DNA of 60,282 nt, filler included, from Porpidia crustulata (lineage: Eukaryota), in NCBI GenBank assembly GCA_964255105.1. It is 2 parts of 2 records of this genome, joined end to end, with 100 filler letters (N's around TTAATTAATTAA, not from the genome) between each part and the next. Parts side by side here need not be neighbours in the genome. Positions count along the whole stretch, not along the records: positions 30,332 to 60,282 come from CAXUWE010000022.1; 1 more part is not named here. The stretch is one strand, 5' to 3'. Positions 30,232 to 55,173 of this stretch are shown here, one piece after another. A program made the translations under genes and the position numbers. The notes below the pieces were generated by a model. It was not told the DNA's origin. It was given only the letters and a program-made list of their open reading frames with translations, and ran no database searches. How positions within the stretch are numbered: the first letter of the stretch is position 1; each line of letters starts with the position of its first letter.

Positions 30232-30331
30232 NNNNNNNNNNNNNNNNNNNNNNNNNNNNNNNNNNNNNNNNNNNNTTAATTAATTAANNNNNNNNNNNNN
30301 NNNNNNNNNNNNNNNNNNNNNNNNNNNNNNN
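30232..30331. other. Artificial contig-joining linker (N44-TTAATTAATTAA-N44)
   Basis: Exactly 100 bp, symmetric N runs around a palindrome giving stops in all six frames. GET4 does not resume after it. Confidence 0.95.
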
Positions 30332-30529: not shown

Positions 30530-33499
30530 TTACAGTATTCCGCCAGGGAGTGTCGCTGCGGTCTGAGCCTCTTGTCGTTGGTCAAATAACGTGGTATATT
30601 TCCCCAACAAGTCAAGAATCACTTCCTGCATCGCCTTCTTCTCAAATCCCTCTTTATATCCATCTGTGGAGCTGCCAGTCTCGGTGCCTTCATCCTCTTC
30701 GTCAAAGTAGTCGATCATCTCTTCTTCGGCCGGCTTGTCTTCCTTTACTACCTTATGAAGTAAAAGTTTTGATCTAAAAGACCGTGCTTTTGACAGGGAA
30801 GCCGTGACGTGGCTCATTCTAGAGGGAGTCGAGCTTGCGCTGGAGGCTTGTCCGCCTCCCTTGCGCCAGGCGAATATCCCTCCTTTTGCAGCAACAGTAT
30901 ACGGTGGCAGTGGATCTTCGTCGACTTCCAGTAAGCCAACAGCCCAGTCTACTCTTGATGCAGGATTTGCATGGACAAGTCTTTGGCTGTGCTCGTCACC
31001 GGATAGCTGAACGGGAAGGCTTCCACGAGGGCCATTTTCTTGCTGCTCGAAATATTCGTGCTCAGTCTCGCTTTCAGCCTCTACCTCTGCCTCTACCTCA
31101 GCCTCTGCGTCAGAGTAGTCGATCATCTCTTCGACTGCCCCTTCTTCTTCCAGTATATCATCAAGTGGAGCTTCCGTTGTAGAGGACGGTGCTTTTGACT
31201 GGTAGGGCGGGACGGTGATTGTTTTGGTACTGTAAACTTCGGGATGGTCATAAGGACCCGAGCGTGCGCTACAGGCTTTTACGTCTACCCTTCTGTTGAC
31301 GTTTTGCCTAGCCCTAACGGGTGACTGTATACTGCTTGCTTCAGTCAGAGGGTGTATACCTTTGTCAACCCCCAGCAAGCCAGGAGCCCAGTGCTCTCTT
31401 GACGCCGAATTGGCACGGGCAAAACTTTGATTGTACTCGTGAGGGTCATTTCCTTGCTGCTCGGAATATTTGTGCCAAGACTCGCTTTCAGCCTCTGCGT
31501 TAGAGGATTTTCGGCGTAACACAAACATGACTCTCGAGCCCAATTGCTCGACCAACGAGGAAGAGCTTTCCTCAAGTCCAATACGTCGCTCCAGACCGTT
31601 GAAGATTATAAAAAGGGAATATTTCTGCCAGTCGTCCTCGATATTGTGCCTTTTCAACAGCTCAGGCATCAGTTTACGGAGTGGGTCATGGCCAACCATC
31701 AAGGACTTAAAGACCTCGGTATCGACGGGCTTTGATTTTTCAGGGGCACCAGTACGATTTTCGGACGACGGCTCTTGATGGAGCGATGACTCACCATCAA
31801 GAGATGACTCCCCATCTATAGCTGACTTTTTACCTGTCTGTGCCATGTCGGAAAGCATTGCGAAATCAAAAATATCGACATCATCGGAAGATTCGACAGG
31901 ACCCATTGCTGATTGGTGAAAGTTTTTGATATCAATATGATGATGGAGCGTAGGCTCTGCCATGAATGGAGCTTGTCTTTCTGACACTTCCTGAAATGAT
32001 TCATAATACTCCTCGCCCGTGCTAGTCGTAACAGTTTCACGTTCAGAGTCTTCGTGAAGAGCTTGCATTTTTACCTTGATGGCGTCTAATGTTGCTGTCT
32101 TTCTAGCCGGTTCAGATTTTCTCAAACTCTTTTGCTCTTGAACAACCATTTGAAGGCCCGGTACACCTTGAAACAGGATTTCCCTATGTCGTATATCTAC
32201 TTTGGTCCGTTTAATCGATGCGAGTGAAGCTCCTGGGCCAGTAGTAGAGATTACATTGTTTATGACATTATGCTCATGGAGATGTAACGATTCCATCACT
32301 TCCCATACTGCGGGTATACCCTCCTGTTCGTTCCGAGCCAGCTGTTTGCGTATCTCATCTTGGCTGGTCTTGACAGTACGCAAACTCCAGCTAATCTGAA
32401 TCATATGGGGAAAATCTTGAACATCTGGTTTGAGAAAAAAGAGTCCCAGTTCGTAATCATGTGCTTTATCGCCATCAAAAGCAGACGCTGATCTAAGGGT
32501 TGAGAAATCGATTGATTGATCAATTGATGGTGAAATGGTATTACTTGTAGAATGGTATTGAAATTTCTCAGACGGAAACTCCTGAGCAGTGAGGAGAAGT
32601 CCGTTCATAGCTGACTTTTTAGTCTTCCACAACTCGACCTTCCTCCTAATTTCATCCATCGGGTTCTGATGACTCGGAGACTTCGTTTCCGAGTCCGATA
32701 TCGCAGGTGTCTGGCCTGCTGGATCTTGAGATGACATGGCCATGAATACAGTAGGTTTCAGACCGTTCTGATCTTGGACATTTTTCGAATTCGAGGCCAG
32801 AACGACTTGATTTTCGGAAACAGTCGGTGATACGCTTCTCAAAGTCCTCGTTACAAGTGGACCTCCCCCCTCATTATCATTGATTGACAGGCGACGCTGC
32901 TTCTCGTTTCTGCCAAGATTATTCTGTTGATCCGTCTGCATTGCCAAAATAGCATAGACCATATCTCGTTGTTCGCTCAACTTCATATACCCTGAATTGT
33001 TAAGCTCCGCCATCTGCTTGGACAAGGCCAACGTCGTAAGCTGAAGCATTAACATAAGTGTACCCTTGGCCTCTCTCAAATCGATTCTTAAAACCTCAAT
33101 GCTGGGTTGCAGAAACGGCCATTTGGCTTTCTCCGTCCTCGAAAGCTTGATTTTACCTCCTATGGATCGTGCTTTACTTCGAAGCTGCTCGCTTGCCGTT
33201 CTCGTCGCCTTGTCAATCTCCTCGAATATTGTTTGACACGTACTCGCAGAAGACTTGGTGGTCTCCAAGCCACTGGGGCTGAAGATACTAATACCACTTT
33301 CATCATCCGCAGCCTTCTGTGTCATCAGTTCCCCAAGCTGCTGAAGCACGCCAGATGTAAGGGATACATCATTACCTATGGAGCTGATGCGTTCAGATGC
33401 GGTGCTAATCTGATTTGCGAGTGTGATGAGCTTAATGGAGATTTGAATGCCGGCAGTGGCAATGCTGACGACGGACGCTGCTGCTCCAATCCCATCCAT
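30530..33499 (-). CDS. 989-aa protein: fungal HeLo-like N-terminal domain, Ste50-like Ras-association domain and acidic repeats
   Basis: MDGIGAAASVVSIATAGIQISIKL..KAKWPFLQPSIEVLRIDL (fungal N-terminal helical domain). EVFKSLMV..LLKRHNIEDDWQKYSLFIIFNGLERRIGLEE..MFVLRR resembles the Ste50 RA domain. Intronless and intact. Confidence 0.8.
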   Translation of the reverse strand: MDGIGAAASVVSIATAGIQISIKLITLANQISTASERISSIGNDVSLTSGVLQQLGELMTQKAADDESGISIFSPSGLETTKSSASTCQTIFEEIDKATRTASEQLRSKARSIGGKIKLSRTEKAKWPFLQPSIEVLRIDLREAKGTLMLMLQLTTLALSKQMAELNNSGYMKLSEQRDMVYAILAMQTDQQNNLGRNEKQRRLSINDNEGGGPLVTRTLRSVSPTVSENQVVLASNSKNVQDQNGLKPTVFMAMSSQDPAGQTPAISDSETKSPSHQNPMDEIRRKVELWKTKKSAMNGLLLTAQEFPSEKFQYHSTSNTISPSIDQSIDFSTLRSASAFDGDKAHDYELGLFFLKPDVQDFPHMIQISWSLRTVKTSQDEIRKQLARNEQEGIPAVWEVMESLHLHEHNVINNVISTTGPGASLASIKRTKVDIRHREILFQGVPGLQMVVQEQKSLRKSEPARKTATLDAIKVKMQALHEDSERETVTTSTGEEYYESFQEVSERQAPFMAEPTLHHHIDIKNFHQSAMGPVESSDDVDIFDFAMLSDMAQTGKKSAIDGESSLDGESSLHQEPSSENRTGAPEKSKPVDTEVFKSLMVGHDPLRKLMPELLKRHNIEDDWQKYSLFIIFNGLERRIGLEESSSSLVEQLGSRVMFVLRRKSSNAEAESESWHKYSEQQGNDPHEYNQSFARANSASREHWAPGLLGVDKGIHPLTEASSIQSPVRARQNVNRRVDVKACSARSGPYDHPEVYSTKTITVPPYQSKAPSSTTEAPLDDILEEEGAVEEMIDYSDAEAEVEAEVEAESETEHEYFEQQENGPRGSLPVQLSGDEHSQRLVHANPASRVDWAVGLLEVDEDPLPPYTVAAKGGIFAWRKGGGQASSASSTPSRMSHVTASLSKARSFRSKLLLHKVVKEDKPAEEEMIDYFDEEDEGTETGSSTDGYKEGFEKKAMQEVILDLLGKYTTLFDQRQEAQTAATLPGGIL

Positions 33500-35464: not shown

Positions 35465-38400
35465 TCATGCCTGGTCTAGAGATTGCGCCAGGCACATAGC
35501 GTAGTATCTGCCCTTGAGCTGCTGCAACTCTTCATGCGTGCCAGTTTCCGCAATCTTGCCATCGTCCATGACAAAAATAATATCCGCATGTCGAATCGTA
35601 CTGAGTCGATGTGCGACGGCGATCGTTGTTCGACTCGAACCCGCTTCATCGAGTGCTTTCTGTACAATGCGCTCGCTCTGAGTATCCAACGCAGAGGTTG
35701 CTTCATCAAGTAATAAGAGGCGTGGTTTCCGGATCAACGCTCGAGCGACTGCGATGCGTTGCCTTTGTCCACCGGAAAACTGAAGACCCTTCGACCCGCA
35801 AGGCGTACCCAGACCTTCAGGCAGTGAGGACACAAATTCCAGAGCGTTGGCCTGTCGACATGCTTCGTGCACTTCCTCGTCAGAGGGGTCGTACTCCAGA
35901 CCGATTGCAATGTTTTCGCGGACGGAGCCCAGATATAGAGGCGGTTCTTGCTGCACCAAAGACATGTAGCGGCGGTACAAATTTGGAGACATGAGCGAGA
36001 TATCGTCTCCGTTCAACGTGATGCGGCCGGACGTTGGATCGTAAAAGCGTTCCAAGAGCGAGATTATTGTGCTCTTGCCACAACCAGATGGCCCGACAAA
36101 CGCAGCATGCGTTCCAGGCTCAATCTTCATTGAAATGCCTCGTAACACCTTCGAGGCGTCCCGTTGCTTGTATCGGAATTCGACGTTCTCGACTCCAATA
36201 CACCCGTCTCCGGATGGCCCTTTGTCATGATTTTTATCGGTTTCGGAGATGCTGGCCTTTATAGTTCTAAGCCAGAGCATGTAATTTGCAGCCACCTTTG
36301 CCTTGGTAATTGAAGTCGTGTACGCAAAAAATTGCGCGGCACCCTGACCTGAGAAGATCACAGCAACAAAGATGACGAAGAACTGTGTCACAGTGTACTC
36401 TCCACTTCCGACCAGCCGAGATCCATACCAGAAGCCAAGGGCCATGATCAGAAAGTCGACTGATTGTGAAAGCGCATAGGGGATGAGTGTCAGCACCAGA
36501 CTTCGAATCACCTTGGCCACAATGTCTTCTAAAGCTTGACTGTATTCATGCAAAATCGAGGCCTCGAGAGTCAGGGAACTGATGGTCCTGATTGAGGTAA
36601 CAGCTTCCGTAGCTAATCCAGCGCTGCTTGCAAATTGGTCCTCTACTGAAGCCTCGAGCTTTTGATCAAGCCGGATGCGGACGTATCCAGCAGCAATGAG
36701 GACAGAAAGTCCGCCGAAAACGATAGTGAGGCCTAACTTCCAGCCGTAAGCGATACCCAGAGCACTACTGGACACAACGTTGACCATAAGATTCAGAATG
36801 AGGCCGAGGTTCTGGGACTGCATTTCCTGCAACGCTGTCGGTACAGACGATAACTTGGAGGTCACGGCTCCGGAAGAGTTCTCCGGGCGATCAAAGAAGT
36901 CCTGGTCAAAGCGAACTGTACGTTCAATCATCTCTCGACGATAGCGATGGGTTATGGCCTGCCCAATTGTATTACAGGCCCATCCAAGGGAGAAGTATCC
37001 GAAAAGGTTTGCAAGCGCTAGCACAAAGAACATGAGGGCGTAGAAGTTGGCCTGTTGTTTTGCTTCTGAGCCCTCCAACGTGAACACGTTGATGAGACGT
37101 GAGAAGAGTATCGCTTGTGCCGGGTACGTGCCACCGCCGATTATACTTCCTATGGCGATGACCAGGTACCATAGGTATAAGTCTGAATGTTCTGCGAGCA
37201 TAATGACGATGCACTTTCCAAGCGAGTATTCAACAGTTCCAGCCGTAAGCTGCTCAACATGGCGCTCTAAAGCCTTCGGCGTGGCTTCGGACTGCGTTCG
37301 TTGAAGTGAGACGGTTCGGTCGAATTTTTCCTTTTCATATCCTCCCTCGTCTGACTCTTCACGAAAATCCGGTTCTCCAGCCTCGGCGCCCAGATCTTGT
37401 GCACGCACCATAGCGGCGTACAGGCCATCGCGCTCGAGGAGTTCACTGTGGTTACCTTGCTCGACTACATTTCCATTCGCCATTACAGCGATGTTGTCAG
37501 CCGCCATGACCGTTGCGAGCTTGTGCGCAATGATGAGGGTCGTCTTATTGGCCGACACACGGTGAAGGGCATTTTGAACAATCCTCTCTGCACGAGGATC
37601 GAGCGCACTGGTGGCTTCGTCGAGCAGCAGGACTTTCGGATCCGAAATGATGCTCCTTGCGATGGCCACTCTCTGCCGCTGCCCGCCACTCAACATACTC
37701 GCTCTCTCACCGACTTGTGTGTTGTAGCCCTCGGGCAATTTTTCGATGAAGTCGTGTGCGTTGCTGGCCCTACACGCCTCCTGTACCAGCTCCATTTGCT
37801 TCTCCTCGGAGCAATTCCGTTGCTCGTCAACCAAACCTTTAGCGACATTCTGAAAGACTGTGCCTTGGAAGAGAATAGGCTCCTGCTGGACGAGTCTGAT
37901 ATTGCTCCGCAACCATTTCGTGTTGTAGACCGCGATTTCCTGGCCGTCCAAGAGAATCTGACCTGAAGTCGGCTGATACCATCGTTCCAGTAAGCTAACC
38001 AAAGTGGACTTGCCGCAACCGCTGGGTCCAACAAGAGCTGTAGTTTTTCCAGCCGGTATGGACAAGCTCAAATCCTGAAGTACTTGCGCTGTGGGTCGCG
38101 CAGGGTATGCGAAGCGTAAGTCACGAATCACAATTTCTCCTGTACAGGAAGTGGGTTGTATGCCATCGGAAGAGAGTGGATCAAGCAGAGATGACTTGTC
38201 AATAATGGAAAACAGCTCTGCAGCAGCGGAAGAAGCATTTGTGATGGATTGGATCTGTGGCGTTAGGAGCAGGACAGAAGTAGCACCAAGCGTCACGCTA
38301 AGGACAACTGTAAAGACTGGTCCTACACTGCTGATTTCTCCGCTTTGGAATAATCGAAAGCCTTCCCAGAAAGCGAGCGCAGTGCCTGACATGACTAGGA

Positions 38401-39473
38401 ACGTCTGAGTGGAGAAGAGGACGCCATAGATCAGCGACTTCTTCTTACCTTCCATGTGAGCTATTTGTAAGTATTCATCGTACTTTTTCACAATCTTTTG
38501 CTGCGCTCCGAATGCGTGGATGGTCTTAATGGAGCTAATGGCATCCTGAGCAAGGACTGCCGCGCGAGAGTAGATTCGTACCTGAACAAGAGGAGATATC
38601 AGGTACACATTGCCTCATAAGGAATGCTCTATTACTTACGATGCGGGCCTCCACGGGTGCATCGACGGCGATACATCCGCCTATTACCAGGGCAATTGCT
38701 GGCACTATACTCATTGTGATGAGAGCAAGCTTCCACTGGACAGCAAGTGCCACAATATATGACGAGAAAAAGAGCGAAATTGCCTGGACGGATGTGAACA
38801 GTTTCTCGGCAATGCCTTGATTGACACGGTTGCCGTCTGGTAGATCTTGTCAGCAACAAGTCTTCTTTGGTGGGAACCACGTACTCGTTGTAACCTGCGT
38901 CGCAGCAGATCCATTGCCCTGCTTGTCAAAATGCCATACCTCCTGCCTCAGCGTGCTCACCAAGAACGCCTTTCTCAAGGAGCATGTTGTTCTGGTAGCC
39001 GCAATACATATACACAGTGTTGCCACGTAACCGATGACGAAGCGAGCAACGAACAGATACACGAAGTAAAGGACGAGATGGTTGATCCTGTCTGTGAACT
39101 GCTGCGAGTTGCCCTGGCCAACGGCATAATTGTTGTACGAAGCTGTTGATGAGCCGAAGACCAACGTCATCAACGGTAGAGCAGCACCAACCACCAGAGC
39201 GCCTACAAGGGCAATTGCGTACAAGAGACAGCTGAAGCGGTCCGCATATCGGAAAATTCGCTATCCAAGCATCAGTCCAATACAACAAAGATACTCTCGT
39301 TCGTTGCTTACGAAGTAGTCTCGCATACTCCCTACGCTCTCCTTCTCTACGGTATCCTCTACTTTCTCAGTCGAGTTCCCATCATACGATGAACTCTCTT
39401 TGAGCTCGACCTTGTTCGGCATATTGTCCACAGCAGTTGGCTGTACACCAAGTGACTTCTCAACGTCAGACAT
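35465..39473 (-). CDS. Full-size ABCB/MDR-type ABC exporter (4 exons)
   Basis: TMD-NBD-TMD-NBD with two GPSGCGKST Walker A motifs, LSGGQRQR/FSGGQRQR signatures and LLLDEATSALD. Three GT-AG introns in the 5' part keep the frame. Confidence 0.95.
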
Positions 39474-40378
39474 CTTTCGTATCTTGCGTAAGGAGCCAAG
39501 TCTAATAGATCAGGCGAAAGCCGATTCGTAATGGTTTATAGGTACTCTACTAACTATTCTATCAGCGAGCTAACAAATATTAGTACATCGAGCAAAGAAG
39601 GAGGCATGAGTGAGTCTTACAGAATAATTAAAGGACAGGGTGTAGTATGTAGACTATAACTTAAGAAATGAAGCCGATATTACTGGATTAGCTACCGTTG
39701 CTGTCATGATCAGTGGATGGAGTCGTCGTGCAGTTTCGAAGACGAAATGGTGATAGAAAAATGTGTAGTCATATAAAGCGGTGCAGAAACCCATTGATGC
39801 CTTGCCGTCCTGCTAAGCGAAAGCAATAAGTATGATCTATTCAGCAATGGTCTCCATGTCTACCTTATCCATACGCCAAAGGACAACGCAGTCTTAAACG
39901 TCATCTTTAGGCTCCAGCGGGAAAGAACTCCATATTAACGATAACATGAAGCTTAAATTGACAGAACCCCTGGATAGGTACCTCGGTACGCGGGTGTCAC
40001 CAAAACCGAGAAACCCGAACCCGAAACGACCAGTGAGTGCTAAGACGCATCGCGCATATCTATGACGCATCGTGTTGACCCATACAATTGACCCATACAA
40101 ATAATCACAATTCATACCTACAGTATCTGGACCAGAGCCGTTTCTCAGTAGCAAGTCAATTGAATCGTCTTGAACGTTATCTAGTTACCTATATCGCTAG
40201 ATTTCCGCTTCGCAATTCAGATAGGCCTAACAGTAAACAGCGAAAAAGACTGTGAAACAGTCAAGATCATCGCGATTCTAGCGCGGTTTTAGACGCGTAG
40301 TCTGTATGCAGATTAATAACTTCATGCGATCAAGCGCGCCGCATTCGACTAGTCTTGATCTCGTCGTTCTTCGCTCTC

Positions 40379-40570
40379 TGTTACGAACAAACCCCTAACA
40401 TCCCGGCACGGTGGGCGATGCTGTTTAGGGTGATGGAAAATGGGCGAAGTCGGAAGGTAGCTAGGCCCAGTTAGGCTAAGCTGTACCCCTGAGCACCCTT
40501 ATGGCTAAGCCCTATCAAGGGGCTTGGGCCCCATTAGGGGTTGCTGAGGTTGTAGGGTTTGGTCGTAACA
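40379..40570. mobile_element. 192-bp TGT..ACA element with terminal inverted repeats (solo-LTR or MITE relic)
   Basis: Starts TGTTACGAACAAACCCCTA and ends TAGGGTTTGGTCGTAACA (imperfect ~18-30 bp inverted repeat). No clean target-site duplication. Confidence 0.55.
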
Positions 40571-40733
40571 ATCGGCTTTGTAGAAGGAAAGACAGAACAG
40601 ATTTTAATATATCGATAGGAACTTTCCATTTAGATGAGCCGATTCCCTGATCTATATAATTACGACTAGTCAAGCACATTGTATCTCTCCAACATTCCAG
40701 ATGTAATTCTCTCCTGTTGAAGAAACACCCTCT

Positions 40734-42138
40734 CTAGAACCAGCGATCGTTCCGCTTGTCGTCAAACATTCCGTTTGTGTGCCGTGTGTGCTTAGAATCG
40801 GTTTCCTCGCCTAACCTCTCGCCCTGTTTAATGTCTGCGAATAGTGCGTGATCACCACTAAAATAAGTGGTGTAGCCTGTCGTGATTTTAGAAAAAAAAA
40901 TTGCAATTCGAAGCTGAAGTTACTTACGATTAGCCTTTGCATACGATTCGCGATTTTCGACAAGCCATTCGTGCGAGGTGTGAAGCTTGGTCATTGGTAT
41001 ACGAGGTAGCAAGTGGTGTAAAAGATGATAACAGTCATTGTGTGGTTGAAGGAAGTACTGAAACATATTGCAGCAGGGCGTGTTTCGTGAGAAAGCCAGG
41101 ATGGTTGTTGGTTGCAGACCGGAATGGTCCACGGTTTCTCTCAGTATGTAAAAACAGTACGAAATGGTGCAGCGTGTGGTCTGGAAGAGCAAGAGAAATT
41201 GCCAGCCCACCGGGATAAACCCAATAGAGAGTGTTTTTGGTTCAAAAAGGCCCGTCAACACGGCTACAGTTGCCCACCAGATAGAGAGCTGCAGCGGGGC
41301 TTTTGCAAAAGATCCTAGCGCGTTTAGGGAGAATGCAACTGGATCTACCACATCGTAGAGAAATAAAGAAAAGATCGAGGTGTGGTCATGTCGACCAGTC
41401 TAAGCGTTGGTCAGTCTGTGTGCCATTGTACGTAGGGAATTCGACTCACTCGATAATGCCTCAAACTAGTCTCGTTATGGAGTCCGTGGTCGGGATCAGC
41501 AGCTGTTCCAAGATAGTGATGATGCGCGCCGTGTTGTTGGCGCTGCAGACTCGCGGTGGTCATGAAGCAAGGGGCGAGGAAACTGTTTGCGATGATGTCG
41601 TTCAAATGCTAATCTTCTATCAGAACATCCGCTTTTCAACCCGAGATAAAAGTCAATATCTCACCCTGTTTGCAACCAGATTACGATGGATGGAATCATG
41701 AGCGAGGTTATGGATGCCTCGTTGGCCCCAAGACATGAGGCAGATTGCAAAAAGGAAAGTCAATCCATTCGGTTGGTAGAGGTAGATCTGCCACGCCGCC
41801 AGGATGACTCCCCAGTCCCTCGCAATTGTACTGCACCTCCAGTTTCAGCAAACGTCCAAAGACAATACGATTGCTGAAGCTTACAGAAAAGCAGCATAGC
41901 CAGTGGGTTCTTCCCAGCTTCTCAAGATGTTTTTTGGGACCTGAGATCGAAACTCTCTCAATTGATGCAACACGGGAATTTTGTCGCCAGGTCTGAACTC
42001 CAAATCGGGCGCCGAAGGCTGTCTCAGCTCTGTGGTAGTAGACATAACCGATGCAAGATCTGTGAAGAAATTAGACTTGTGAAAGTCCAGATGCGAGGTG
42101 AGCACTTTATAATCAATCTTCGAGGCAGCCGTGGTCAT
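40734..42138 (-). CDS. Membrane di-iron fatty-acid-desaturase-superfamily enzyme, RtxC/GntB-like (5 exons)
   Basis: Spliced product has three His boxes: QRGIHNLAHDSIH, HGAHHHYLGTAADPD and HNDCYHLLHH, plus RETVDHSG. Four GT-AG introns keep the frame through to TAG at 40734. No cytochrome b5 domain. Confidence 0.85.
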
Positions 42139-42599
42139 TGTATATTCCGGGAATGTAAAGGCTTACCCATTTACCTCGAATGGATCGTCAGGACTCCTGG
42201 ATTTCTGTTGGGAAGCTCGGCTCAAGGGCATGAAGATGGTGTGGTGATGCGTCACAATCACCCTTCCCTTAGGATGATTGATCAGACAATGTGGCGGATG
42301 AAATGAGTTGGGTACATCTGCATTGACTGGTGATAGACGCTTGCATGACTATTGGAATCCACCCGGGGAGGACGAGTGGATGCCCATCTTCCGAATGTGA
42401 GCATGTGGGGCCACTTCTCTAGAGGGTCTGAAACAGCAGGTGCAACTAGTTTGTAGGAGTATGTGCAGTTGGGTCACCAATTGACTCGAATTGACGGAGA
42501 GATCGCCCGATATAACGCAGTACTGTGATGTGATGACTTGGTGGATTGCACATAATGTGTTCTAGATCTTGTTCGCCGTTGATTTAAAATTATAATAGG

Positions 42600-43035
42600 T
42601 TCGATTCCTATTGGCGCTGGTACAATGGTGTAATGGTTTTCTTTTCTGATCTATCCCTTCAGCTGGCTATCTTTTGAGGTTATAATCAAATTAGGTTTTG
42701 GTTCCTAATGGTGAATGGCGCTGGTACCATGGTGTAGTGGATTTATTTTCTGGCAGCGCCATTAGCTATAAGTCTTTAAAGTTTCGTATCTTCCCGGGGG
42801 CGATCAGGTCCGATTCCTAATGGATACCGACAAAATAAAATTTCCATAATTTCAAAATGCAACAATCGTTCTAATTCAATAATCCTGAATTCAATAATTC
42901 CGTAACTCATGCACCCGTGATCCACAATCTACACTTAATTTAGTGATTGTTGGATTGTTGGAGTATGGAAATTTTGTTTTGTCGGTACAATGGCCCGCCG
43001 TGCAATGGTGTAGTGGTTTTCTTTTCTGTGGCTGC
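42600..43035. repeat. Degenerate direct repeats in the divergent intergenic region
   Basis: ATGGTGTARTGGWTTWYTTTTCTG-like block at ~42623, ~42730 and ~43005; TTCCTAWTGG at ~42605, ~42702 and ~42814. Confidence 0.65.
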
Positions 43036-43755
43036 TTCATAGCCAGCTGAAGGGATACAACCTGGGTTTTCATACTATTTTTAGGACACTAAGCGAATCA
43101 TCAATACATGCAATGATCGCAGCTACAGATAGAATCTGTATAATGGAATTGTAGCTTCCATTCAATTGTACGATCTTCGGCTGTCCCGAACCTAAAAGCG
43201 GGCCCGATTAGATACCTTGTCACGCTTGTCTGTCCGGATCTCACCACCCATAGAACGTGGCGGCTGATCTACAGCAGGCCTTCCGCACGATTAAACAGAC
43301 ACCGTGGTGCGGATCTGATTCCCCGAACGTCTGTCCAAATCTAGAAAGTGAGGGTGAGCCATCAACGAATACCTATCTGATGCGGGCCTAACATCCAGAA
43401 GATTTGCTGGTGTTTAGAGAATGAAGGTGGGCTGACGGGAAGCCTCAAAATCTGATGCAGAATAGAGTACGGCAATCCTGCCCCTACAAGTTGTTGGAAT
43501 GGAAATTCTGTCGTATACGATCTTCGGAAATACATTGGAAGTTTCTCTCTGGGAGTGAGGGGCCAATAAAAAAGATGGTGCAGCCCTGAGGCGCTGTTTG
43601 AGCTACGTATGGTAGGGTTCGAGTCCAATTGCTCGAGGTGGATTGCCTGTCGACGTCTCCGCAATAGGGGCGAGACCGAACAGTCACCCACGTGGCGCAA
43701 TCGTTATATATCAATCTTCGTCAGTGTCCCGACACCACCGTCCTGCTAATCAACC

Positions 43756-46700
43756 ATGCATCGCCCTCATTCTGGCATGTTCAATTGTTGGACTTTTTCC
43801 AGTCGTCGATATTTGACCAAGCTACCATTACTGCTTTACCATGGACTCCCAGCTATTATCCTCGGTATACTCTTCAACACTCTCGATGCCGGTCAGTCTA
43901 CCCAACACCGCAATCGAAAGAGTCATAGCTAAGATACCTAGTTTCGACGGGGCTTTTGGTATTCCCGACCGAGAAGCAAAGGTCAAGTCTCGCGACGCTA
44001 CAAAACCAAGCGGTGTCGCTGTACATTATGAGGTGAGCGACTACCGCCGTACCCACGATACCTCTTGCTGATTTGGTGAGCACGATAATCTCGCAGTTGA
44101 CTTTGACTTTTGGGGGCTCACGTTTTCCGGGCGCGCTTGGATCCATGCTCATCGAAGTTCTTCCATTTCTGCGGGGTATTGCAAGCAAGATACAAACAAG
44201 ACTGGGGGATGAAAATCCAAGTTTGATACCCACGGTCTTCGCTGCCTACGCTCTCACCAGCATCCTTGTGGGCGCAGTATGCACTGTCCTAGGATTCTTC
44301 CGCTGTGGACGATTAGTAAAGCAGCAAATGTCCTCTTGGGAACATCAATCTGACTTGTGACATAGGTTCAATACTTTCCAAAAACTGTCCTCACTGGTGC
44401 TATCGGTGGGTACCCAAAAGCTGTCAAAAAGCATGAGATAGTAACATCGTGAACTCATCAGGTGCCATTGGCGTCTCTCTGTTCCTTCTCGCATTACAAC
44501 TTACTCTCCCTCCAACAGCGCCAACGTTAGACTTGGCATCAGCAGGTCACGTACTCTTCAACAACAGTCATCTACCACTCCTTTTCGCGTCCCTCCTCCC
44601 AGCCCTGATTCTGTCTCTGTCAATTCGCCTCCCATTGCTAGCAAAATTATCTCGGGGATTTACCGATCATGCACTGTACGTGCCGACCTACATGTTTACT
44701 ATTGTAGGTATTTTCTGGACCGTTGTGGCTAGTACGGCGCTGGCCAATAATGCCGGCATGACTCACTTAGCGGATCTCGGCTGGCTATTTACAGTGCAGA
44801 TGGATGCTACAAGTACTGCAGCTCAACATCACGCGTGGAATTATTGGGCTTCTTTCGACTTCCCGCTGGTCCAGTGGTCCGCTATGACTGCTGCCATCCA
44901 GGACATCGTGTTATTGGTCGTCATCGGAGTGCTGAATTTACCAATCTACATCCCAGCTATGGCTCTCACACTTGACGTATCGAAGTATGACATGGATCAT
45001 GAATTCCTGGGTCATGGAGTCTCAAACATTATGGCTGGTGCTGTTGGTACAATTCCCAATCTTGTGGTACGCGTCTGCATCGCTTTTAATCTACCTTAAA
45101 ATACCCATAGCGCCATCTGACTTTCCTAGGTCTTTTCCTACACCCGTCTCTTCACCCTTGCCGGTGGAGGCCGCTTCGAGGCCTCAGTTGTCATCTTGCT
45201 TACCGTGGCTCTCTTCTTCGTTTCTTCTTTGATCTTACCATATGTTCCAACAATCTTGGCATCTACACTAGTGCTGTTCCTAGGTCTAGAGCTAATGATC
45301 GAATCCTTATGGGAGTCGGCTAAGACGCTCATTTGGAGTGAGTGGGGGATCGTAGTTGGTACCCTCCTGGCGTGCACTTTCCTAGGCTTCGCTCCAGGAT
45401 TCGGCGTTGGGATAGCTCTTGCAATACTTATGTACGTAATTCTGGCAGCAAAAGATTCAGTCAGTACCCAAAGACAACATCCGATCGGTCGGGGATCACT
45501 CAAGTTAACAGTGGTTCAGAGTGTTCGGGTAGTCAAGCTCCCTAGCTCAGGAAGGCTGCACAAATACCGGGCGTCATCAGTTGAACATGCCTCCAACAAA
45601 ACATCTTTGATCTCAGAGCACCTTGGAAATTATCCTTTGTCCGAACGCCTATCCGTCCCAGTCATGAAACTATCTAGTGAAATTGCTGTCGACCGTGTCG
45701 CCCTGGCTCCCCCACAGCAACCCCGTGTTGAAGTCGAGCGTCCCGCAATCACTGTCCTGCGTCTTTCAGGCTATGTTTGTGCGTATCAGTGTTCTCCAAA
45801 TTAGATGCATGGACTGATTATCTTAGTCTTTGCCGCACTGCCGTCACTGGAACGCCAGATACAGCTTTTGCTCAATACTAAATTATGTCAAGTGGTTGTA
45901 GTTGACCTGACTAGTGTCTATCGAATAGAGACATCGGTTGCACGCTATCTTGAACGTCAAGGCCGAGAATTTGCCTCTCAGCCGTATTCTATATCCTTAG
46001 TATTGGCTGGATTCAACAAGCGCTCGGGCGTTCATGCTGATCTCTTGAGAGGAGGCATCATCTGCCGCTGGGTAGGCGACTCTGAACGCTGCGGAGCGCA
46101 TGTTGGTTCGCCGGCAACGACACGCGGAAATAGCTTGATAGCCTTCTGTAACCTCAAAGAGGCGTTACGGTGGATCGAGCTCCCAGGCGCAGGTATGTGA
46201 TAAGCCTTCCGACTGCGTACCATGCACCGAGGCTGACATCCTAGGAGATATAGATGACGCTCATATCTTGGACGAGGACATTATAACTTACTTTTTCCGT
46301 CTTCTCACACCAGAGCATTCAGACCATCTTTTCAGCCAACTCAGTAATCTTGGAGCACCACCACTCGAGCGTCTATCACGCTGCGGTATATCAGTGCGAA
46401 GACCTGCCGAAGGGGAGACCATTGCGGAGGCGGGTAAATGCTCATCATCGCTGTTTTGGCTACGAGATACTAAGAGAACAGTAGATGTTCAAGAAGAAGC
46501 CGCCGACACCACCTTCATCGTGATACGCGGTCGTGTCGCAGTGCGAGGGTCTTATTCAGCCATCATTCCCGCACCTGAAAGCCGTCCTGCCGTTGAGGCA
46601 GCGTTCCCATTGATGATCGGCAACGGCCTGCAACGGATTACTGGGTTCATTGATAAACACACGACCAAACGGCACGAGCAAATGGTGCTTCCTTCATTTG

Positions 46701-46927
46701 CTCCTCGGAGTGGATTCTACAGTGAGACGCAACTCCTCCCGGGGCACATGTTCGACATCGCGGAGTTCCACGGTAGAGGTAGGGGCCCCCAAGCGGCCGA
46801 CGTCTCTGCTGGGCCGTGTTGGATCCTGAGAGTTGACGCAGACAATGAACCAGGCGTAGCCTGGTTGCGGGTGGCCCGTACGCTGTTCCAGAATCAGGCT
46901 GAGCAGGACGAGAAGATTTTAGGATAG
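43756..46927 (+). CDS. SLC26/SulP-family transporter with STAS and degenerate cNMP-binding-like C-terminus (Vsb1/YGR125W-like; multi-exon)
   Basis: Spliced N-terminus GLPAIILGILFNTLDA|VSTGLLVFP, YIM|STIISQLTLTFGGSRFPGALGSMLIEVLPF, YFPKTVLTGAIGAIG, DMDHEFLGHGVSN, STAS LRLSGYV|F..VVVDLTSVYRIETS. Confidence 0.85.
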
Positions 46928-48062: not shown

Positions 48063-51000
48063 TCAAAGTATGACGCCAATTCCTCTGAGCTTCGTTTTGT
48101 CGAGCTCGCCTCTTTGTTCAAGCACCTCTTGCATTCTTTCCGCCCAGTAACCTTTGAAAAAAGTGATCAGGGTATGGTCTCCTAAGTTTTCTTTGAATTC
48201 GTGCAGCACGCTCTCAAGTAGCTGAATTCTGTCGTGGTCTTCGTCCCGTATTTCTTCAATCTCTTCTTGCTCTGGCTCTGTGACGCCACCACGATCCCAC
48301 TCACAGCATGTATGTCTCAGCTCCAGCTTACGAAACGTATGGAAGCGAACGATTTCCCCGGTAAGCCATTCCCAGTAGCCGTTTTGAGGTCCGATGACAT
48401 CGATTAGGAATTCTGTCGCATGTAGGGACCAGTCAAAGAAATCTTTCGCGGGCACGAGATGGTCATCCTTGAAGTGCAACATTCCTTTCAGCATCATCGT
48501 GGATGCTAGACAGCCTCGGGATGAACATGCACATCTGCGGTTGCCATATGAACAATTTGAGAGAACGGTAGCTAAGACCAGCCTCTGATCTGGGCCAAGT
48601 CAACTCAGTTGACCTTGTAGGCAGACTTTGGAAGTTTTCAGACGGGATCGAAAAAGTGTTGATAATTCTTCCGCATTCAAATCTTGGGTAAGATATTTGA
48701 TGCTGTCAGCCCTGAAAGAAAATACAGCAATTTCTCCGATGGTGGCAGCCACATAGTGTAAGGCCAAACTTGTCGGCGGTAAATCCATCTCCTCTGGCAG
48801 CATTATGGGATCATCGTCTAATGGAACAACTTTTGCCCGATGGAGCTTTGCTCCTCTCTGGACCAGCCAAGTAATAAGTCTGACTGCAATTAACATGCTC
48901 TCTTTTTCGTCATAAGTCAAGCCTTTGTACAACATCAAGGGAGTCAGGCCTGTGAATGCCGGGATATCGATATCACGGAATCCAGCTTGCCAAAGCTTTT
49001 CTGCAATCTCAGCTGTCAATTGAGACATGTGATATACAGTCCGCAAGCGAGTAGGAATTGTTGATACTGTTGGCAGAGAGATACCATTCCTTTCTAGGAG
49101 TCTCTCAGCATGAGGAGCATAAGCATCGAGGACTGTCATTTTGAGTCCAAGAAGCACTATCTTTCCTTGTCAAAGCTGTTGCAACTAGCCGACTTTCTAG
49201 GTCGCGGCGTCTCTCAGCCAGCACTGTCATGACTGTCTCTAAAACCGCCTCACCGGAGTCGGAATGACTGTTGTACATAAAGGCTGCCAGATTTAAAACA
49301 TCACCTATACCCGTTTCGAAAACGTGCCCCATGGCGTGGCTCCAATTAGCCTTCATTAGGAGACCCGCGCTCTCCGCAAAGCCGAGTGAGATTGCGTACT
49401 CGAGCGGTGTCTTGCCACCTAGATCACGAGCGTCCACTCCTGAGCCGTGTAATAGCAATACCTGTACGCCAGAAGGCCAACCGACGGCCAAATGTAGCGG
49501 AGCTTGCGCCAATATATTCCCGTGGTTGATTAGCTGAGGCCATTCCTGCAGGGACTTGAGCAGCTCTGGCAACGATCGTCGAAGAGCAGAAATACTCATC
49601 TCACTACAGCCGAAACCTGCCTGGATCAGTAAGCCGACACATGATTGTTGATTGATTTGAGCCTACCATCAAGAACTTCCACGGAACCAGCAAATGCGAA
49701 TGTGCAACTACGAAAGTATATACGAAGGTAATACGGGTCCGAGCAACTGCCAAACTCTGCTCCAGACTCAAGCAATTGAGTAGCTGATTTGCAGAGAAGA
49801 TCGTGATCCATATCATCATTGTATGGAGACATGACAAAATTGTCCAGGAAAGTCCTGACGTTGTTACTTTTCGCTTGCTTGGTTGGACTCAAATTGGGGG
49901 TGGTTTCCTTACTGATTGAAATCGTTGGTCCAATTGAGTGGGACGCCAAGCTCTTTAAGCCTTCGATAAAACCAGAATACCGCTTCAACAAACGGAACAA
50001 TAAAAAGATGGAGCGAGCTGGAACGCGCAATCATAATAGAGTAATTGAAATTGGCGCTTGCATACTATAGAGATGTCAGTGCGGGCAGGAATCCAGAAAT
50101 ACTGAGTTTATGAAAAACGAACATGGAGTATTGTGCTGCCATAGAGATCAACGTCATAAGGAGAGGCTTTTTTGTTGTTGAACAACTGCTCAATTCCGTT
50201 CAACCTGTTCTGCAAACACACTTGCCAATCATTCAAACTTTCGATCGACCCGTCTCCGATTACGCTTCTAAGACTGACGTGCTTGATAAGAGCGCTGCCG
50301 GCAGGAATTACGTTCGCACACTGTAAGCTCGGGCTAATTGAGAACCCACCAGCACCTCTAGTAATGGAGATCGACGCCTGGATTGCTCTAGCGAGGAGTA
50401 TCCAACAGCTTCCGATGGAAATTTTGGCAACCGTAGTTCTCACTGCGTCCCGAAACAGCGGGCACGTACGGTGGTGGCTCAAAGATTCGGTCTGGAATTT
50501 CAGTTTTCACCTGGGGTTGGGCGCAATTCCAAATTGAGAACTCTTTGAACCACTATGGGATGCTAAGTCAAGGTGCTTTAAGTGGCAGTTGCACGTTGCA
50601 TGTCCACGTCGACCTCCATTCTGCAGTCTGAGCTGGGTGTGCAATGCCGATGTATCTGGTGTCGAAAACTCAAAGCGATTGTTCTCATCGCAGACTGATC
50701 GCATAAGAGCTGGCTGACACATGACGCCCAGTTGGATGCTTGTGATCATCTTTCGCTAATGAACGGTGAGCACACGGTCGTAAAGCAGAAGGTAATCCAT
50801 ACTAGATTTTCCATTCTTACGGTATGCTGCTTGACTTCAAGGCTTTGTTCCAAAAATGCGTGTTTCATTTCCTGTTTTAATTCATTCATTTCGACACCAT
50901 AACAAGCCAGATTCCTCTCTATAGTGGCCTCGATGCTTTGTTGAGAGCCATTCGCACGTTCAGCGAGCGCCATAAATTCTTCAAGAACATTTTCACGTAA

Positions 51001-51715
51001 AGTAAGAACATCCTGGTGAGAATGTCGGGCCTCATGATGCAGAGTTTCTACGTTGATGGCTATCTCTTCAGTCTGCTTTTGCAGCGGCGAAATGTCTTGT
51101 TTGCTGTCCTCGTTTGCTCGAACAAGTTCCCGTATTCCTGTTTCATTGCTCTGAACGACTGCCTTAATATCTGTCGAAGTCATAAGTAAGACCTCGAGGT
51201 CTTGATCAAGCCCGGCCGAAAGGTGACTGCGGACTGGATTCAGCACTCTATGCTTGCTCAAATAACCCTCTGACATACAGTTGCAGTATTTGCAATGCAC
51301 AGCCGAGGTTCACCTGTGTGCTGTGCACGATATCCTTCAGTGTTTGAAGTGTCTGCTTTCTCAATGGGTAGAACATCTTGTTACGATATAACTCCAGCTT
51401 CCCAGCAAGGTTCTGTGGAATATGGCTGGAGCTGCATCGGTCCAAGGCGCTCCGGAGGTTTTCGATCCCATTTTGGCAGGAGGCGATGAGCCTAACAACC
51501 TAATCAATAACGCGCCCTTCTTTTTGTGCTGTCCTTCTTATCACTCCTTCCAGATTCTCACAGGTTATCTTGAGCTCGTTGATATCTTGATAGGCTTGGC
51601 CAAGCTCATCATCAATTGACTTGAAGGCCGAGTAGTACAACGCCAAACCCTGGCAAGATTGGAGGCCCAAAGTGATCAACCCAACCACACTCCCGGCAGC
51701 CGCAAGCTCCGCCAT
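48063..51715 (-). pseudogene. Disrupted gene: HeLo-like N-terminal domain, ankyrin repeats and Cys-rich C-terminal domain
   Basis: MAELAAAGSVVGLITLGLQSCQGL start; ankyrin QAPLHLAVGWPSGVQVLL..GKTPLEYA and GLTPLM; C-terminal CACSSRGC..RFHTFRKLELRHTCC. In-frame stops at 51500, 50507 and 48600, and frameshifts near 49800 and 49140. Confidence 0.85.
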
Positions 51716-52953
51716 TCGGAAGCGGTCTCGCCTTGACAACTGAGATTATAGACGAAAAGAGTTTTTAGTTGCAGGCGATGAAACAGAGCCGTCAGTGACT
51801 CCAATACCTCAGCGATCACATGGTCGATATTGCAGCAACTCAGCCCTGTTGCTACGGCAGTCTAAGGTAGGCAGCCATCGAATCAATTCTGAAATACCGT
51901 TACACATACTCAAGATGATAAATGTTAGCGTGACAAGGATGCTTCAAGTGAAAGCTCCAGAGAGAAAGTGCTAAAAAAGGTCTTCGCGATCAATTGTCAT
52001 GACTTTCAGTCCTTCTCATTCTCAACCGCTCTTTTCTCACAAGACCCAACGTTTCCATTGGTGATACGATAACATCCACACTGTTTAAAGTGAAAATTGA
52101 TCTCGCGCAGTTCAACGAATCTCGACCGCAGTCGAGATTCGTCACGACGACGCACTCGAGCAAGATCTTCGGAAAATCAGAGCTTATTTCATCTTGATTA
52201 AAAGACTTTCGCGATCCATTGTCATGATTTTTAGTTCTTCTTATTCTTGATTCGTGCATACTTCTAAATAGATTGTTTATCGTTCATTGTGCTACGACCA
52301 CCCCCAGGGGCACACGTTTACCCGGGGGAGGCCCATGTGCTACTACCTAGGTAGATATACCGAGGCTAGGGCCCTAACATTTATTAACATTGAATTAATT
52401 AATTAATTTCGTTTACTTGACTATTTGTTGATAAGAGGTTACTTGAAAATGTTTCTAACATATAGTTATCTTCTATTATAGTTACACTTCTTTATCTGGT
52501 AGTATATTTATTTGTTATTTCATAATTAATTTTTCTTTTATTAAAGAATCTATAAATAAGAAGTCTTGAAGAAATAAATATCCAGAATTTAATATTATGT
52601 AGATAGTAAGCCACCTGAGGGACTGGTGTGAAACCGAGTCGTTCTCGTCTCGCCTGCATTAGACTTTCTCTTCTATTTGTTTGATACGTTGCTACTTTTG
52701 CGCCGTCGAGAATGCGGCAGCTTTATGGACGAGTACAGAGACGGCGTTACCACTCAAAGCGAAAAGCTTTGCCAAATGCTCCGGAGAGCACCGCAGCAAT
52801 CACCTGAACAGACCCTATTCTCGCGGCTCTTGTCCCTTTTAAGGGCACTATAACTAGCTCCTTATGGACTGGTGATGGCCGGGGCTGCCATCGTCGCTAA
52901 TGCCATATGCCCGTAGCGACGCCGAGATTCGACTCGATTTCTAAGTGGGAATC

Positions 52954-54797: not shown

Positions 54798-55173
54798 GGC
54801 GACGAAGCTGTTTAGGGCGAGAGACGAGGGCTAAAGGCATCATCTTCATATTATACGAAGAGACTGAGTGTATTCCCGCCTGAGGTGACAGGCAAATATT
54901 GGAGTTTTAGACAAGGCGTGTTAGCCCACATTGATTGGCTGATTGTCGCGAAGAGGTGTAGGCAGCAGCTCTCCATTTCGCTTTGTAGCCTAGCATCATA
55001 CAATGCATATCCTCATTTGCCATCTAGGGTGCGCGCATGCGTGCCGTCTTTGTTTCCAACTCGGTGTGTTAGCCCGCATGGATTATTTGGTGATCGCTGG
55101 GAGGCCTTTCACGTGAAGGTGTGCCATTACTGCCCTAATTTTTTCCATCTTCCTCTTCGCAATATGTCGGAAA

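What the first reader, a model, noticed from the sequence alone, without database searches (positions are those of the whole stretch)
35465..46927. Candidate amino-acid-modification cluster: RtxC/GntB-like oxidase, Vsb1-like transporter and ABCB exporter, with no PKS/NRPS core
Seen: three adjacent genes whose spliced frames appear intact while most neighbours on this contig are decayed; the oxidase and the SLC26 transporter are transcribed divergently. Known: b5-less desaturase-family enzymes such as RtxC (rhizobitoxine) and GntB (guanitoxin arginine hydroxylase) act on amino acids rather than lipids; yeast Vsb1 moves arginine and other basic amino acids across the vacuole; ABCB pumps export metabolites. 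Inference: a minimal pathway supplying a basic amino acid, oxidising it and exporting a non-proteinogenic amino-acid product. Standard cluster finders would miss it.
Basis: partly seen in the sequence, partly recalled or inferred. Interest (0 to 1): 0.78.

Follow-up and report, generated by a model that had tools for sequence, protein, structure and literature searches.

The report
Conserved fungal oxidase and transporter pair
A fungus carries an intact iron-dependent oxidase gene next to a vacuolar-type transporter gene, a pair that recurs side by side in distantly related fungi and probably oxidises and stores a basic amino acid such as arginine, while the neighbouring export pump looks like a bystander.

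Summary
All three genes are intact. The real unit is two genes, not three. The oxidase (PF00487, nine conserved His) and the SLC26 have adjacent accessions in 8 of 17 named fungi that carry the oxidase, spanning Boletales, Polyporales, Agaricales and Pleosporales. The ABCB is an ordinary lichen/Dothideomycete gene (92% to Psora); none of its 35 species-named top hits is an oxidase-bearing species. The oxidase is not GntB (72-96 bits, cut-off 380) or RtxC. It forms its own fungal clade, nested among bacterial and unnamed relatives and far from lipid desaturases. Bacterial relatives sit beside ArgP, LysE/ArgO, CtdA-like B3/4 editing proteins or amidinotransferases (68 of 98 loci; 20 of 80 more distant ones). 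The SLC26 is a Vsb1 paralogue that keeps the cation-site Asp and Glu but has lost the essential Tyr. Best reading (0.4): the oxidase makes an oxidised arginine-type antimetabolite and the transporter stores it in the vacuole. Main rival (0.25): uptake and oxidative breakdown of canavanine-like analogues. No substrate or expression was shown. I found no description of the pair in the searched literature.

The parts
40734..42138 (-). Membrane-bound His-box diiron oxidase (PF00487, no cytochrome b5 domain), 397 aa; exons 42138-41885, 41830-41665, 41608-41450, 41399-40928, 40876-40734. Core of the cassette.
   Evidence: Open spliced frame. PF00487 on exons. H129/H133, H166/H169/H170, H285, H318/H321/H322 are shared by 15-16 of 16 fungal and 160-161 of 161 bacterial/unnamed relatives. 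The AF2 model of homologue P0002 (pLDDT 82) matches desaturase/AlkB/SCD1 folds.
43756..46927 (+). SLC26/SulP transporter of the Vsb1 type (TM + STAS + cNMP/RmlC-like tail, short N-terminus), 898 aa, 10 exons. A paralogue of the genome's canonical Vsb1. Core of the cassette.
   Evidence: Open spliced frame. PF00916. Weak STAS and cNMP hits in homologues. D44 and E101 correspond to Vsb1 D223 and E278; T48 replaces Y227 and M98 replaces E275 (Y position read by eye). A canonical Vsb1 with DALSYG and SEMIEV lies on G000:C124.
35465..39473 (-). Full-length ABCB (MDR-type) exporter, 1283 aa, 4 exons. Intact, probably an unlinked neighbour.
   Evidence: Open spliced frame. PF00664/PF00005. 92% identical to a Psora testacea protein and about 72-82% to other lichen and Dothideomycete proteins. 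0 of 35 species-named hits among the best 120 come from an oxidase-bearing species.
42139..43755 (.). Divergent intergenic region holding three degenerate copies of a short dispersed repeat (42612-42648, 42716-42752, 42992-43028) and a 43-nt inverted repeat (42825-42987).
   Evidence: One search lists 39 matches: 3 on this contig and 36 on 34 other contigs. Unitigs break here.
40379..40570 (.). 192-nt element with TG...CA ends and 16-nt terminal inverted repeats between ABCB and oxidase (solo-LTR- or MITE-like relic).
   Evidence: I3. Single match in the genome.

Best explanation
The oxidase and the Vsb1 paralogue are a conserved two-gene module; the ABCB is a bystander. SHOWN: intact genes, conserved adjacency, family assignments, retained cation-site residues, and arginine/lysine-linked neighbours of bacterial relatives. 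INFERRED: (1) the oxidase is a membrane diiron enzyme that uses O2 and a separate electron donor (cytochrome b5 type, from general knowledge of the family) to hydroxylate or desaturate the side chain of free L-arginine or a close basic amino acid, most likely at C4 as GntB does; (2) the product is an arginine mimic that is toxic in the cytosol; (3) the SLC26 pumps it into the vacuole, as Vsb1 does for arginine and lysine, giving storage and self-protection, and the Tyr-to-Thr change fits an altered ligand. This is the eukaryotic counterpart of bacterial cassettes that pair the same oxidase family with an exporter (LysE/ArgO, DMT) or a tRNA-editing protein.
For: Adjacent or near-adjacent accessions in 8 species: Hydnomerulius KIJ65767/68/69 and KIJ65786/87; Melanogaster KAF9230933/34; Rhodonia KAF9814400/01; Polyplosphaeria KAF2727544/45; Setomelanomma KAF2035003/04; Mycena albidolilacea KAJ7340707/08; M. 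venus KAF7363231/32; M. capillaripes KAJ6566174/76. The best named match among 18,950 NCBIfam models is GntB. A fungal-only profile scores bacterial relatives 118-205 bits, RtxC 71-79 and the genome's other seven PF00487 frames at most 23. The fungal clade is monophyletic (support 0.999) and nested among bacterial and unnamed sequences. ArgP, LysE, B3/4 or amidinotransferase lies within 5 kb in 68 of 98 loci and 20 of 80 more distant loci. One ArgP neighbour passes the curated cut-off; one B3/4 neighbour matches CtdA, PDB 9F7E, at E 1e-17; the amidinotransferase matches HsvA/SxtG. One relative is fused to an ADI/DDAH-family domain. The named bacterial branch nearest the fungi (myxobacteria) has biosynthetic partners: heme-oxygenase-like oxidase, NRPS, amidinotransferase, B3/4. 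D223 is kept in 44 of 47 and E278 in 68 of 68 homologues that cover the column. In yeast D223, Y227 and E278 are essential, E275 is not, and vsb1 mutants are canavanine-hypersensitive (PMC13160679 passages).
Against: No substrate, product, localisation or expression data. Y227, essential in Vsb1, is lost in the whole paralogue family. For 9 of 17 oxidase-bearing species no linked SLC26 was shown, including the three lichens closest to this gene; 7 of these had no SLC26 hit, which scored only 8000 candidates. Many SLC26 family members (Mycena, Armillaria, Alternaria, Ascosphaera) have no shown oxidase partner, so the transporter has a life of its own. Pairwise identities of linked oxidases and transporters correlate weakly (Spearman 0.29, p 0.14, 8 taxa). 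The 68 of 98 count is inflated: about 50 are one Burkholderiales cassette. Other relatives sit with adenylation domain + MBOAT-like proteins (12 of 98) or are fused to an N-acyl amino acid synthase-like domain (P0361). Identity to any bacterial relative is only 22-33%, enough for substrate change. The branching between fungal and myxobacterial sequences has modest support (0.88 and lower).
Confidence: 0.4

Rival explanations
1. Scavenging or detoxification module. The transporter sequesters an environmental arginine analogue (canavanine or another guanidino compound) and the oxidase breaks it down. Hydroxylating the carbon next to the heteroatom would give a hemiacetal or hemiaminal that collapses, for canavanine to aspartate semialdehyde plus hydroxyguanidine (chemistry inferred).
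For: The recurring partners are all known canavanine-resistance functions: CtdA (PMC10018355 passages), ArgP/ArgO (PMC12546413 passages) and Vsb1. The commonest bacterial cassette (ACT - oxidase - transporter annotated sodium:solute symporter - ArgP) has no other biosynthetic gene and lies next to mobile-element genes, including on Paraburkholderia symbiont plasmids.
Against: Canavanine is described as limited to legumes (PMC9533460), whereas carriers include lichens, wood rotters and a chytrid. No guanidine riboswitch in 21 of 21 bacterial loci scanned at Rfam gathering score. No CtdA-length B3/4 match in this incomplete genome: one short PF03483 hit, probably PheRS. Both characterised relatives are biosynthetic.
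Confidence: 0.25
2. The pair is real but the substrate is something else: another amino acid or amine (an ether- or thioether-linked amino acid as in RtxC, a polyamine, a betaine), an N-acyl amino acid or a lipid chain.
For: Low identity to all characterised enzymes (23-24% to RtxC). The nearest solved fold is a plastid fatty-acid-desaturase-type chain (8XKS_K, Z 18.5, rmsd 4.1 over 277 residues; the identity of that chain is recalled). A sphingolipid delta-4 desaturase cluster ranks third by language-model features. Tyr227 is lost in the transporter. 60 of 80 distant bacterial loci lack an Arg/Lys marker.
Against: The profile scores the genome's other desaturase frames at most 23 bits against 71-205 for RtxC and cassette relatives. 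A lipid enzyme has no evident reason to stay beside a cation-site SLC26 across two phyla.
Confidence: 0.2
3. One reading: Vsb1-like supply, oxidation, and export by this ABCB.
For: The ABCB is intact, 1.26 kb from the oxidase and on the same unitig. Bacterial cassettes often include an exporter. Local recruitment in one lineage cannot be excluded.
Against: The ABCB follows the host lineage (92% to Psora) while the cassette's best relatives are 50-60% identical and include Boletales. 0 of 35 species-named hits among the best 120 of 651 are from oxidase-bearing species. The one metagenome locus has no ABCB, though it is a broken copy. Limits: orthologues could rank below 120, and I could not read the other flanking genes in the 8 species.
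Confidence: 0.07
4. Linkage without shared function in this genome: a hitch-hiking block or a recent relic in an accessory, decaying region.
For: The contig carries pseudogenes and repeats. The closest lichen oxidases have no shown SLC26 partner. A frameshifted, 5'-truncated oxidase copy lies alone on L002.
Against: Both genes keep open frames over 13 introns and every conserved metal ligand. Adjacency recurs in four orders of two phyla and is multiplied as a unit in Hydnomerulius.
Confidence: 0.08

Closest known systems
GntB, guanitoxin-pathway L-arginine gamma-(S)-hydroxylase (NCBIfam NF041365)
   Same: Best named family for the fungal proteins (72-96 bits, E 5e-20 to 2e-27). Described as a transmembrane enzyme that makes 4-hydroxyarginine (10.1101/2023.03.21.533663, passage).
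   Different: Far below the 380-bit cut-off. No PLP cyclase or other gnt gene nearby. No GntB sequence was available for the tree. One review (PMC12371840, passage) calls GntB 2-oxoglutarate-dependent, which conflicts with the family model; I did not see the original paper.
RtxC, dihydrorhizobitoxine desaturase (Paraburkholderia phymatum WP_012406803.1, assigned by its rtx operon context; PMC5789663)
   Same: Same His boxes plus the DPD and E-x-x-[DE]-H motifs; 71-79 bits on the fungal profile.
   Different: 23-24% identity. A separate clade. RtxC scores 305-322 on the GntB model against 72-96 for the fungal proteins. No RtxA/RtxD partners here.
Saccharomyces Vsb1 (SLC26A/SulP-type vacuolar importer of cationic amino acids; PMC13160679)
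   Same: TM + STAS + cNMP/RmlC-like architecture; D223 and E278 equivalents kept.
   Different: A paralogue: the genome's canonical Vsb1 is elsewhere (G000:C124), with 23-58% identity over exon segments. Y227 is replaced by Thr and E275 by Met. The long N-terminal tail is missing.
Bacterial canavanine-handling loci (CtdA, canavanine-gamma-lyase, ArgP/ArgO; PMC10018355, PMC9533460, PMC12546413)
   Same: CtdA-like B3/4 proteins, LysE/ArgO-type exporters and ArgP flank bacterial relatives of the oxidase.
   Different: The word 'desaturase' does not occur in the main text of PMC9533460. The published route uses a PLP lyase. The PLP enzyme beside some Bacillus relatives is of the methionine-gamma-lyase family, which that paper treats as distant from the canavanine lyase.
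Acyl-lipid desaturases and AlkB (membrane diiron superfamily)
   Same: Fold and His ligands.
   Different: At most 23 bits on the fungal profile for the genome's seven other PF00487 frames. No b5 domain. Patchy distribution.

Membership tests
Membrane-bound His-box diiron superfamily (PF00487) | Three His boxes plus the extra His ligand | tested here: met
   H129-x3-H133; H166-x2-H169H170; H285; H318-x2-H321H322. PF00487 above cut-off on exon 4 and on full homologues.
Membrane-bound His-box diiron superfamily (PF00487) | Desaturase/AlkB fold | tested here: met
   Model of homologue P0002: Z 18.5 (rmsd 4.1, 277 aligned) to 8XKS_K, 12.6 (4.0, 249) to AlkB, 7.1 (5.3, 210) to SCD1; next unrelated hit 4.0.
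GntB (NF041365) | Score above the curated cut-off of 380 bits | tested here: not met
   72-96 bits for three full-length fungal homologues; 34.6 bits for window exon 4.
GntB (NF041365) | C4 hydroxylation of free L-arginine | not testable with these tools
   Needs an enzyme assay.
RtxC | Groups with RtxC in a tree | tested here: not met
   RtxC lies in a separate clade (support 1.0, 37 tips) from the fungal clade (FastTree, 185 sequences, 294 columns, root unreliable).
RtxC | Clustered with rtxA-type aminotransferase/PLP transferase and rtxD | tested here: not met
   No such family among the window ORFs scanned; present beside the rhizobial genes.
Acyl-lipid desaturases of fungi | Closer to lipid desaturases than to amino-acid oxidases | tested here: not met
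   Profile scores of at most 23 versus 71-205 bits. The genome's frames are partly exon fragments, which lowers their scores, and raw identity does not separate them (17-24% vs 23-24%).
Vsb1 cationic amino acid transporters | SLC26 TM domain + STAS + RmlC/cNMP-like domain | tested here: met
   PF00916 above cut-off in 3 of 3 homologues; STAS above cut-off in 2 of 3; cNMP weak (E 0.007-0.04) in 3 of 3; atlas neighbours carry all three domains.
Vsb1 cationic amino acid transporters | Asp223 and Glu278 at the substrate site | tested here: met
   D44 and E101 in the window protein; 44 of 47 and 68 of 68 homologues covering the columns.
Vsb1 cationic amino acid transporters | Tyr227 at the substrate site | tested here: not met
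   Thr in the window protein and in 34 of 49 homologues covering the column; Tyr in none.
Vsb1 cationic amino acid transporters | Orthology to Vsb1 | tested here: not met
   A separate gene with the canonical motifs exists on G000:C124.
Vsb1 cationic amino acid transporters | Vacuolar location and proton-coupled import of Arg/Lys | not testable with these tools
   Needs localisation and vsb1 complementation.
Conserved gene cluster: oxidase + SLC26 | Adjacency in independent genomes | tested here: met
   8 of 17 named oxidase-bearing species, by accession order.
Conserved gene cluster: oxidase + SLC26 + ABCB | ABCB co-occurs with and adjoins the pair elsewhere | tested here: inconclusive
   0 of 35 species-named top hits are from carriers, but flanking genes in those genomes could not be read.
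Conserved gene cluster: oxidase + SLC26 | Co-expression | not testable with these tools
   No RNA holder listed.

The most novel reading that the evidence does not exclude
Fungi from three phyla hold a bacteria-derived, undescribed membrane diiron enzyme that in one step turns arginine into an antimetabolite (or oxidatively cleaves canavanine-type analogues). In many of them it travels with a re-tuned Vsb1 paralogue that serves as the vacuolar self-protection and storage gene. The same oxidase family forms widespread, uncharacterised 'oxidase + basic-amino-acid transporter or tRNA editor' cassettes in bacteria, so one logic has been rebuilt with different transporter families (SSS-annotated, LysE, DMT, SLC26).
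Probability: 0.45. Interest if true: 0.75.

Novelty: new variant of a known kind. Interest (0 to 1): 0.56.

Why it matters
[quoted passage not shown] It gives a first function for a fungal SLC26 subfamily that is expanded in mushrooms. It also points to a large bacterial family of uncharacterised desaturase-like amino-acid oxidases beside canavanine-resistance genes. Each claim is directly testable in yeast, and a free-arginine C-H oxidase would be a useful biocatalyst.

Tried and rejected
Fungal neighbourhoods as DNA: the single metagenome scan gave 1 locus from 63 pattern matches, a broken oxidase copy without SLC26 or ABCB, so synteny rests on accession order. The fungal profile patterns found no prokaryotic locus (0 of 136). 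Expression: no RNA holder listed. Solved relatives by sequence: none below E 0.17. Guanidine riboswitches: none in 21 loci. Mirror-tree test: not significant, and linked transporters are not monophyletic against unlinked ones. The tree root with the genome's lipid desaturases is unreliable (long branches scatter), so donor and direction of transfer are not established and no clade test was run. GC3 of the pair (0.51-0.54) lies within the range of the five other window ORFs measured (0.45-0.54), so there is no sign of recent transfer. Adenylation-domain signatures beside bacterial relatives were read by a recalled motif scheme and were too uncertain to use. The root-exudate-induced 'fatty acid hydroxylase' of P. 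phymatum is a different, sterol-desaturase-family gene. The intergenic repeat is not a tRNA gene by ARAGORN. Earlier scan notes: nothing relevant. Literature: no listing described this pair in searches (open-licence PMC and bioRxiv only; listings plus passages of 11 papers; no supplements opened, and the proteome tables of PMC9533460 and PMC10018355 might list such an oxidase).
Full report
SETTING. The window joins two contigs of a fragmented 22.9-Mb fungal assembly at an N gap (30232-30331). The finding lies on the second contig. The ABCB's closest named relative is from the lichen fungus Psora (92%), so the host is probably lichen-forming (inference).

OBSERVATION. Joining exons by coordinates gives three open frames: ABCB 1283 aa, oxidase 397 aa and SLC26 898 aa. 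The oxidase has five exons; the apparent stop at 40920 is inside an intron, and exon 5 matches the C-terminus of homologues. Oxidase and SLC26 are divergent. Three of four neighbours examined are broken, and the 989-codon ORF at 30530 is open. The oxidase-SLC26 spacer contains a repeat with 36 matches on 34 other contigs. Unitigs of the one available run break there, so that joint is not spanned by one piece, whereas ABCB and oxidase are.

WHICH GENES TRAVEL TOGETHER. A search with oxidase exon 4 gave 15 proteins among 317 candidates; 13 are named and all 13 are fungal. With cluster members (10 of the 15 looked up, one more) this makes 17 named species: lichens, Onygenales, Hypocreales, Pleosporales, Boletales, Polyporales, Mycena and one chytrid. 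A search with an SLC26 exon gave 68 proteins among 8000 scored candidates, and its top hits came from the same species. I looked up 9 of the 68, chosen for matching species and contig length. Accessions are consecutive in Hydnomerulius (two oxidases, flanked by transporters), Melanogaster, Rhodonia, Polyplosphaeria, Setomelanomma, Mycena albidolilacea and M. venus, and two apart in M. capillaripes: 8 of 17 species. For 7 species (three lichens, Arthroderma, Conoideocrella, Moelleriella, Geranomyces) no transporter appeared, and for two Mycena species only copies on other contigs appeared. The cap makes these absences weak. Many transporters of the family have no shown oxidase partner. The ABCB behaves differently: of the best 120 of 651 hits, 35 carry a species name and none is one of the 17. 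It looks like a vertically inherited lichen/Dothideomycete gene. I could not read the other flanking genes in the 8 genomes, so a third member is not excluded.

THE OXIDASE. All nine conserved histidines are present, and a model of the Hydnomerulius orthologue has the membrane desaturase/AlkB fold. The best named family is GntB at 72-96 bits against a cut-off of 380; RtxC from rhizobitoxine-type operons scores 305-322 on the same model. A fungal-only profile gives 118-205 bits to eight close bacterial relatives, 52-92 to the RtxC-side clade and at most 23 to the genome's seven other PF00487 frames. In a FastTree tree of 185 sequences the 17 fungal proteins form one clade (0.999), with three unnamed sequences as nearest neighbours and a myxobacterial group further out (0.88); RtxC is in another clade. 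The root is unreliable, so bacterial origin is likely but not shown. The enzyme probably works like GntB/RtxC but is a member of neither.

BACTERIAL CONTEXT. In 98 of 99 prokaryotic loci with a usable match, markers within 5 kb were: a transporter annotated as sodium:solute symporter 52, ArgP 50, ACT protein 46, adenylation domain 26, MBOAT-like protein 12 (label by eye; no Pfam hit), B3/4 9, LysE 9, amidinotransferase 2. Sixty-eight loci have at least one Arg/Lys-linked marker, about 50 of them one Burkholderiales cassette. In a second set (16 repeated contigs dropped, 80 of 84 with a match), 20 of 80 had a marker: ArgP 15, B3/4 3, LysE 2. Many of the rest cluster with PLP and ATP-grasp enzymes. 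Independent contexts are therefore few but varied: Burkholderiales and Rhodobacterales ArgP; Bacillota LysE, MocR and B3/4; myxobacterial B3/4, heme-oxygenase-like oxidase, amidinotransferase and NRPS; a Polyangium LysE; a fusion to an ADI/DDAH-family domain; and a two-gene oxidase + DMT cassette on a plasmid. I ran no shuffled control. With about one ArgP or CtdA-like gene per genome, chance adjacency should be well under 1% (estimate).

THE TRANSPORTER. PMC13160679 (passages) reports that yeast Vsb1 imports cationic amino acids into the vacuole, needs D223, Y227 and E278 but not E275, and protects against canavanine; anion-carrying SLC26A proteins have Gln at the D223 position. The genome's canonical Vsb1 with these motifs is on another contig. 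The cassette protein keeps the Asp and the Glu278 equivalent, has Thr for the Tyr and Met for Glu275, and this pattern holds across the family. It is a paralogue with a cation-type but altered site.

MECHANISM. Every recurring partner either senses, moves or edits out basic amino acids and their mimics. Two readings fit. In make-and-store (0.4), the oxidase turns arginine or a near relative into a hydroxy- or dehydro-analogue and the paralogue locks it in the vacuole; this is favoured by the biosynthetic role of GntB and RtxC and the biosynthetic partners in myxobacteria. In scavenge-and-destroy (0.25), the pair sequesters and oxidatively cleaves a foreign analogue such as canavanine; this is favoured by the match to known resistance functions (PMC10018355, PMC9533460, PMC12546413; passages) and disfavoured by the hosts' ecology and the lack of guanidine riboswitches in 21 loci. 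Another substrate class (0.2), the three-gene export pathway (0.07) and non-functional linkage (0.08) remain. Substrate, direction and location are all inferred.

AGAINST MY READING. The pairing is not universal, the mirror-tree correlation is weak (0.29, p 0.14), the essential Tyr is lost, identity to any characterised enzyme is about 24%, and no expression data were available.

NOVELTY. Ten literature searches listed nothing describing this pair or a fungal member of this oxidase branch. The library omits most subscription papers, and I read passages only and no supplements. Other papers seen in passages: PMC13725569, 10.1101/2025.05.04.652006, PMC12623156, PMC5789663, PMC6304460, PMC12371840, 10.1101/2023.03.21.533663. 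Verdict: a real, conserved, apparently undescribed two-gene module and a new variant of the RtxC/GntB kind; interest 0.56.

Noticed in passing
L055-L114 (Burkholderiales), L031-L033: A widespread bacterial cassette, often beside ParA, T4SS-like or integrase genes: ACT protein - desaturase-like oxidase - transporter annotated sodium:solute symporter (no Pfam hit) - ArgP. About 50 loci, no function found in my searches.
   Followed up: partly
L017-L029, L034: Bacillota cassette: MocR-type regulator, oxidase, LysE/ArgO-type exporter, often a CtdA-like B3/4 protein or a methionine-gamma-lyase-family enzyme; also on a staphylococcal plasmid.
   Followed up: partly
L012-L015, L140, L143, L221: Myxobacterial clusters with the oxidase plus a heme-oxygenase-like oxidase and B3/4 protein, or plus an amidinotransferase between NRPS genes; candidates for unknown guanidino or arginine-analogue products.
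   Followed up: partly
L043-L069: Oxidase beside a stand-alone adenylation domain and an MBOAT-like membrane protein (label by eye) in 12 loci from several bacterial phyla; resembles a Dlt-like system for attaching a modified amino acid to the envelope.
   Followed up: no
window 42570-43045: Three degenerate copies of a short dispersed repeat with motifs resembling tRNA A and B boxes (recalled consensus), in B-then-A order; matches on 34 other contigs; not called as tRNA.
   Followed up: partly
window 40379-40570: Single-copy 192-nt TG...CA element with terminal inverted repeats between ABCB and oxidase.
   Followed up: partly
Hydnomerulius pinastri KIJ65767-KIJ65790: The cassette is multiplied on one scaffold: two oxidases and five transporters within 24 accession numbers.
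   Followed up: no
In both the oxidase and transporter trees Boletales group with ascomycetes apart from Mycena and Rhodonia, hinting at transfer between phyla or old paralogy; support is moderate and untested.
   Followed up: partly
L002:10001-10568: Frameshifted, 5'-truncated oxidase relic in a metagenome contig among housekeeping genes, with no transporter nearby.
   Followed up: yes
window 30530-33499, 48063-51745, 52954-54830, 55117-56780, 58633-59301: Accessory-type genes: an open fungal-N-terminal/RA-domain ORF, a broken fungal-N-terminal/ankyrin gene, a broken kinase, a frameshifted orphan, and a fragment resembling HET-protein C-termini (recalled; no Pfam hit).
   Followed up: partly
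P0242, P0248, P0276: Three unnamed proteins are the nearest neighbours of the fungal clade and share its DPDHG motif; their source kingdom is unknown and matters for the origin of the clade.
   Followed up: no
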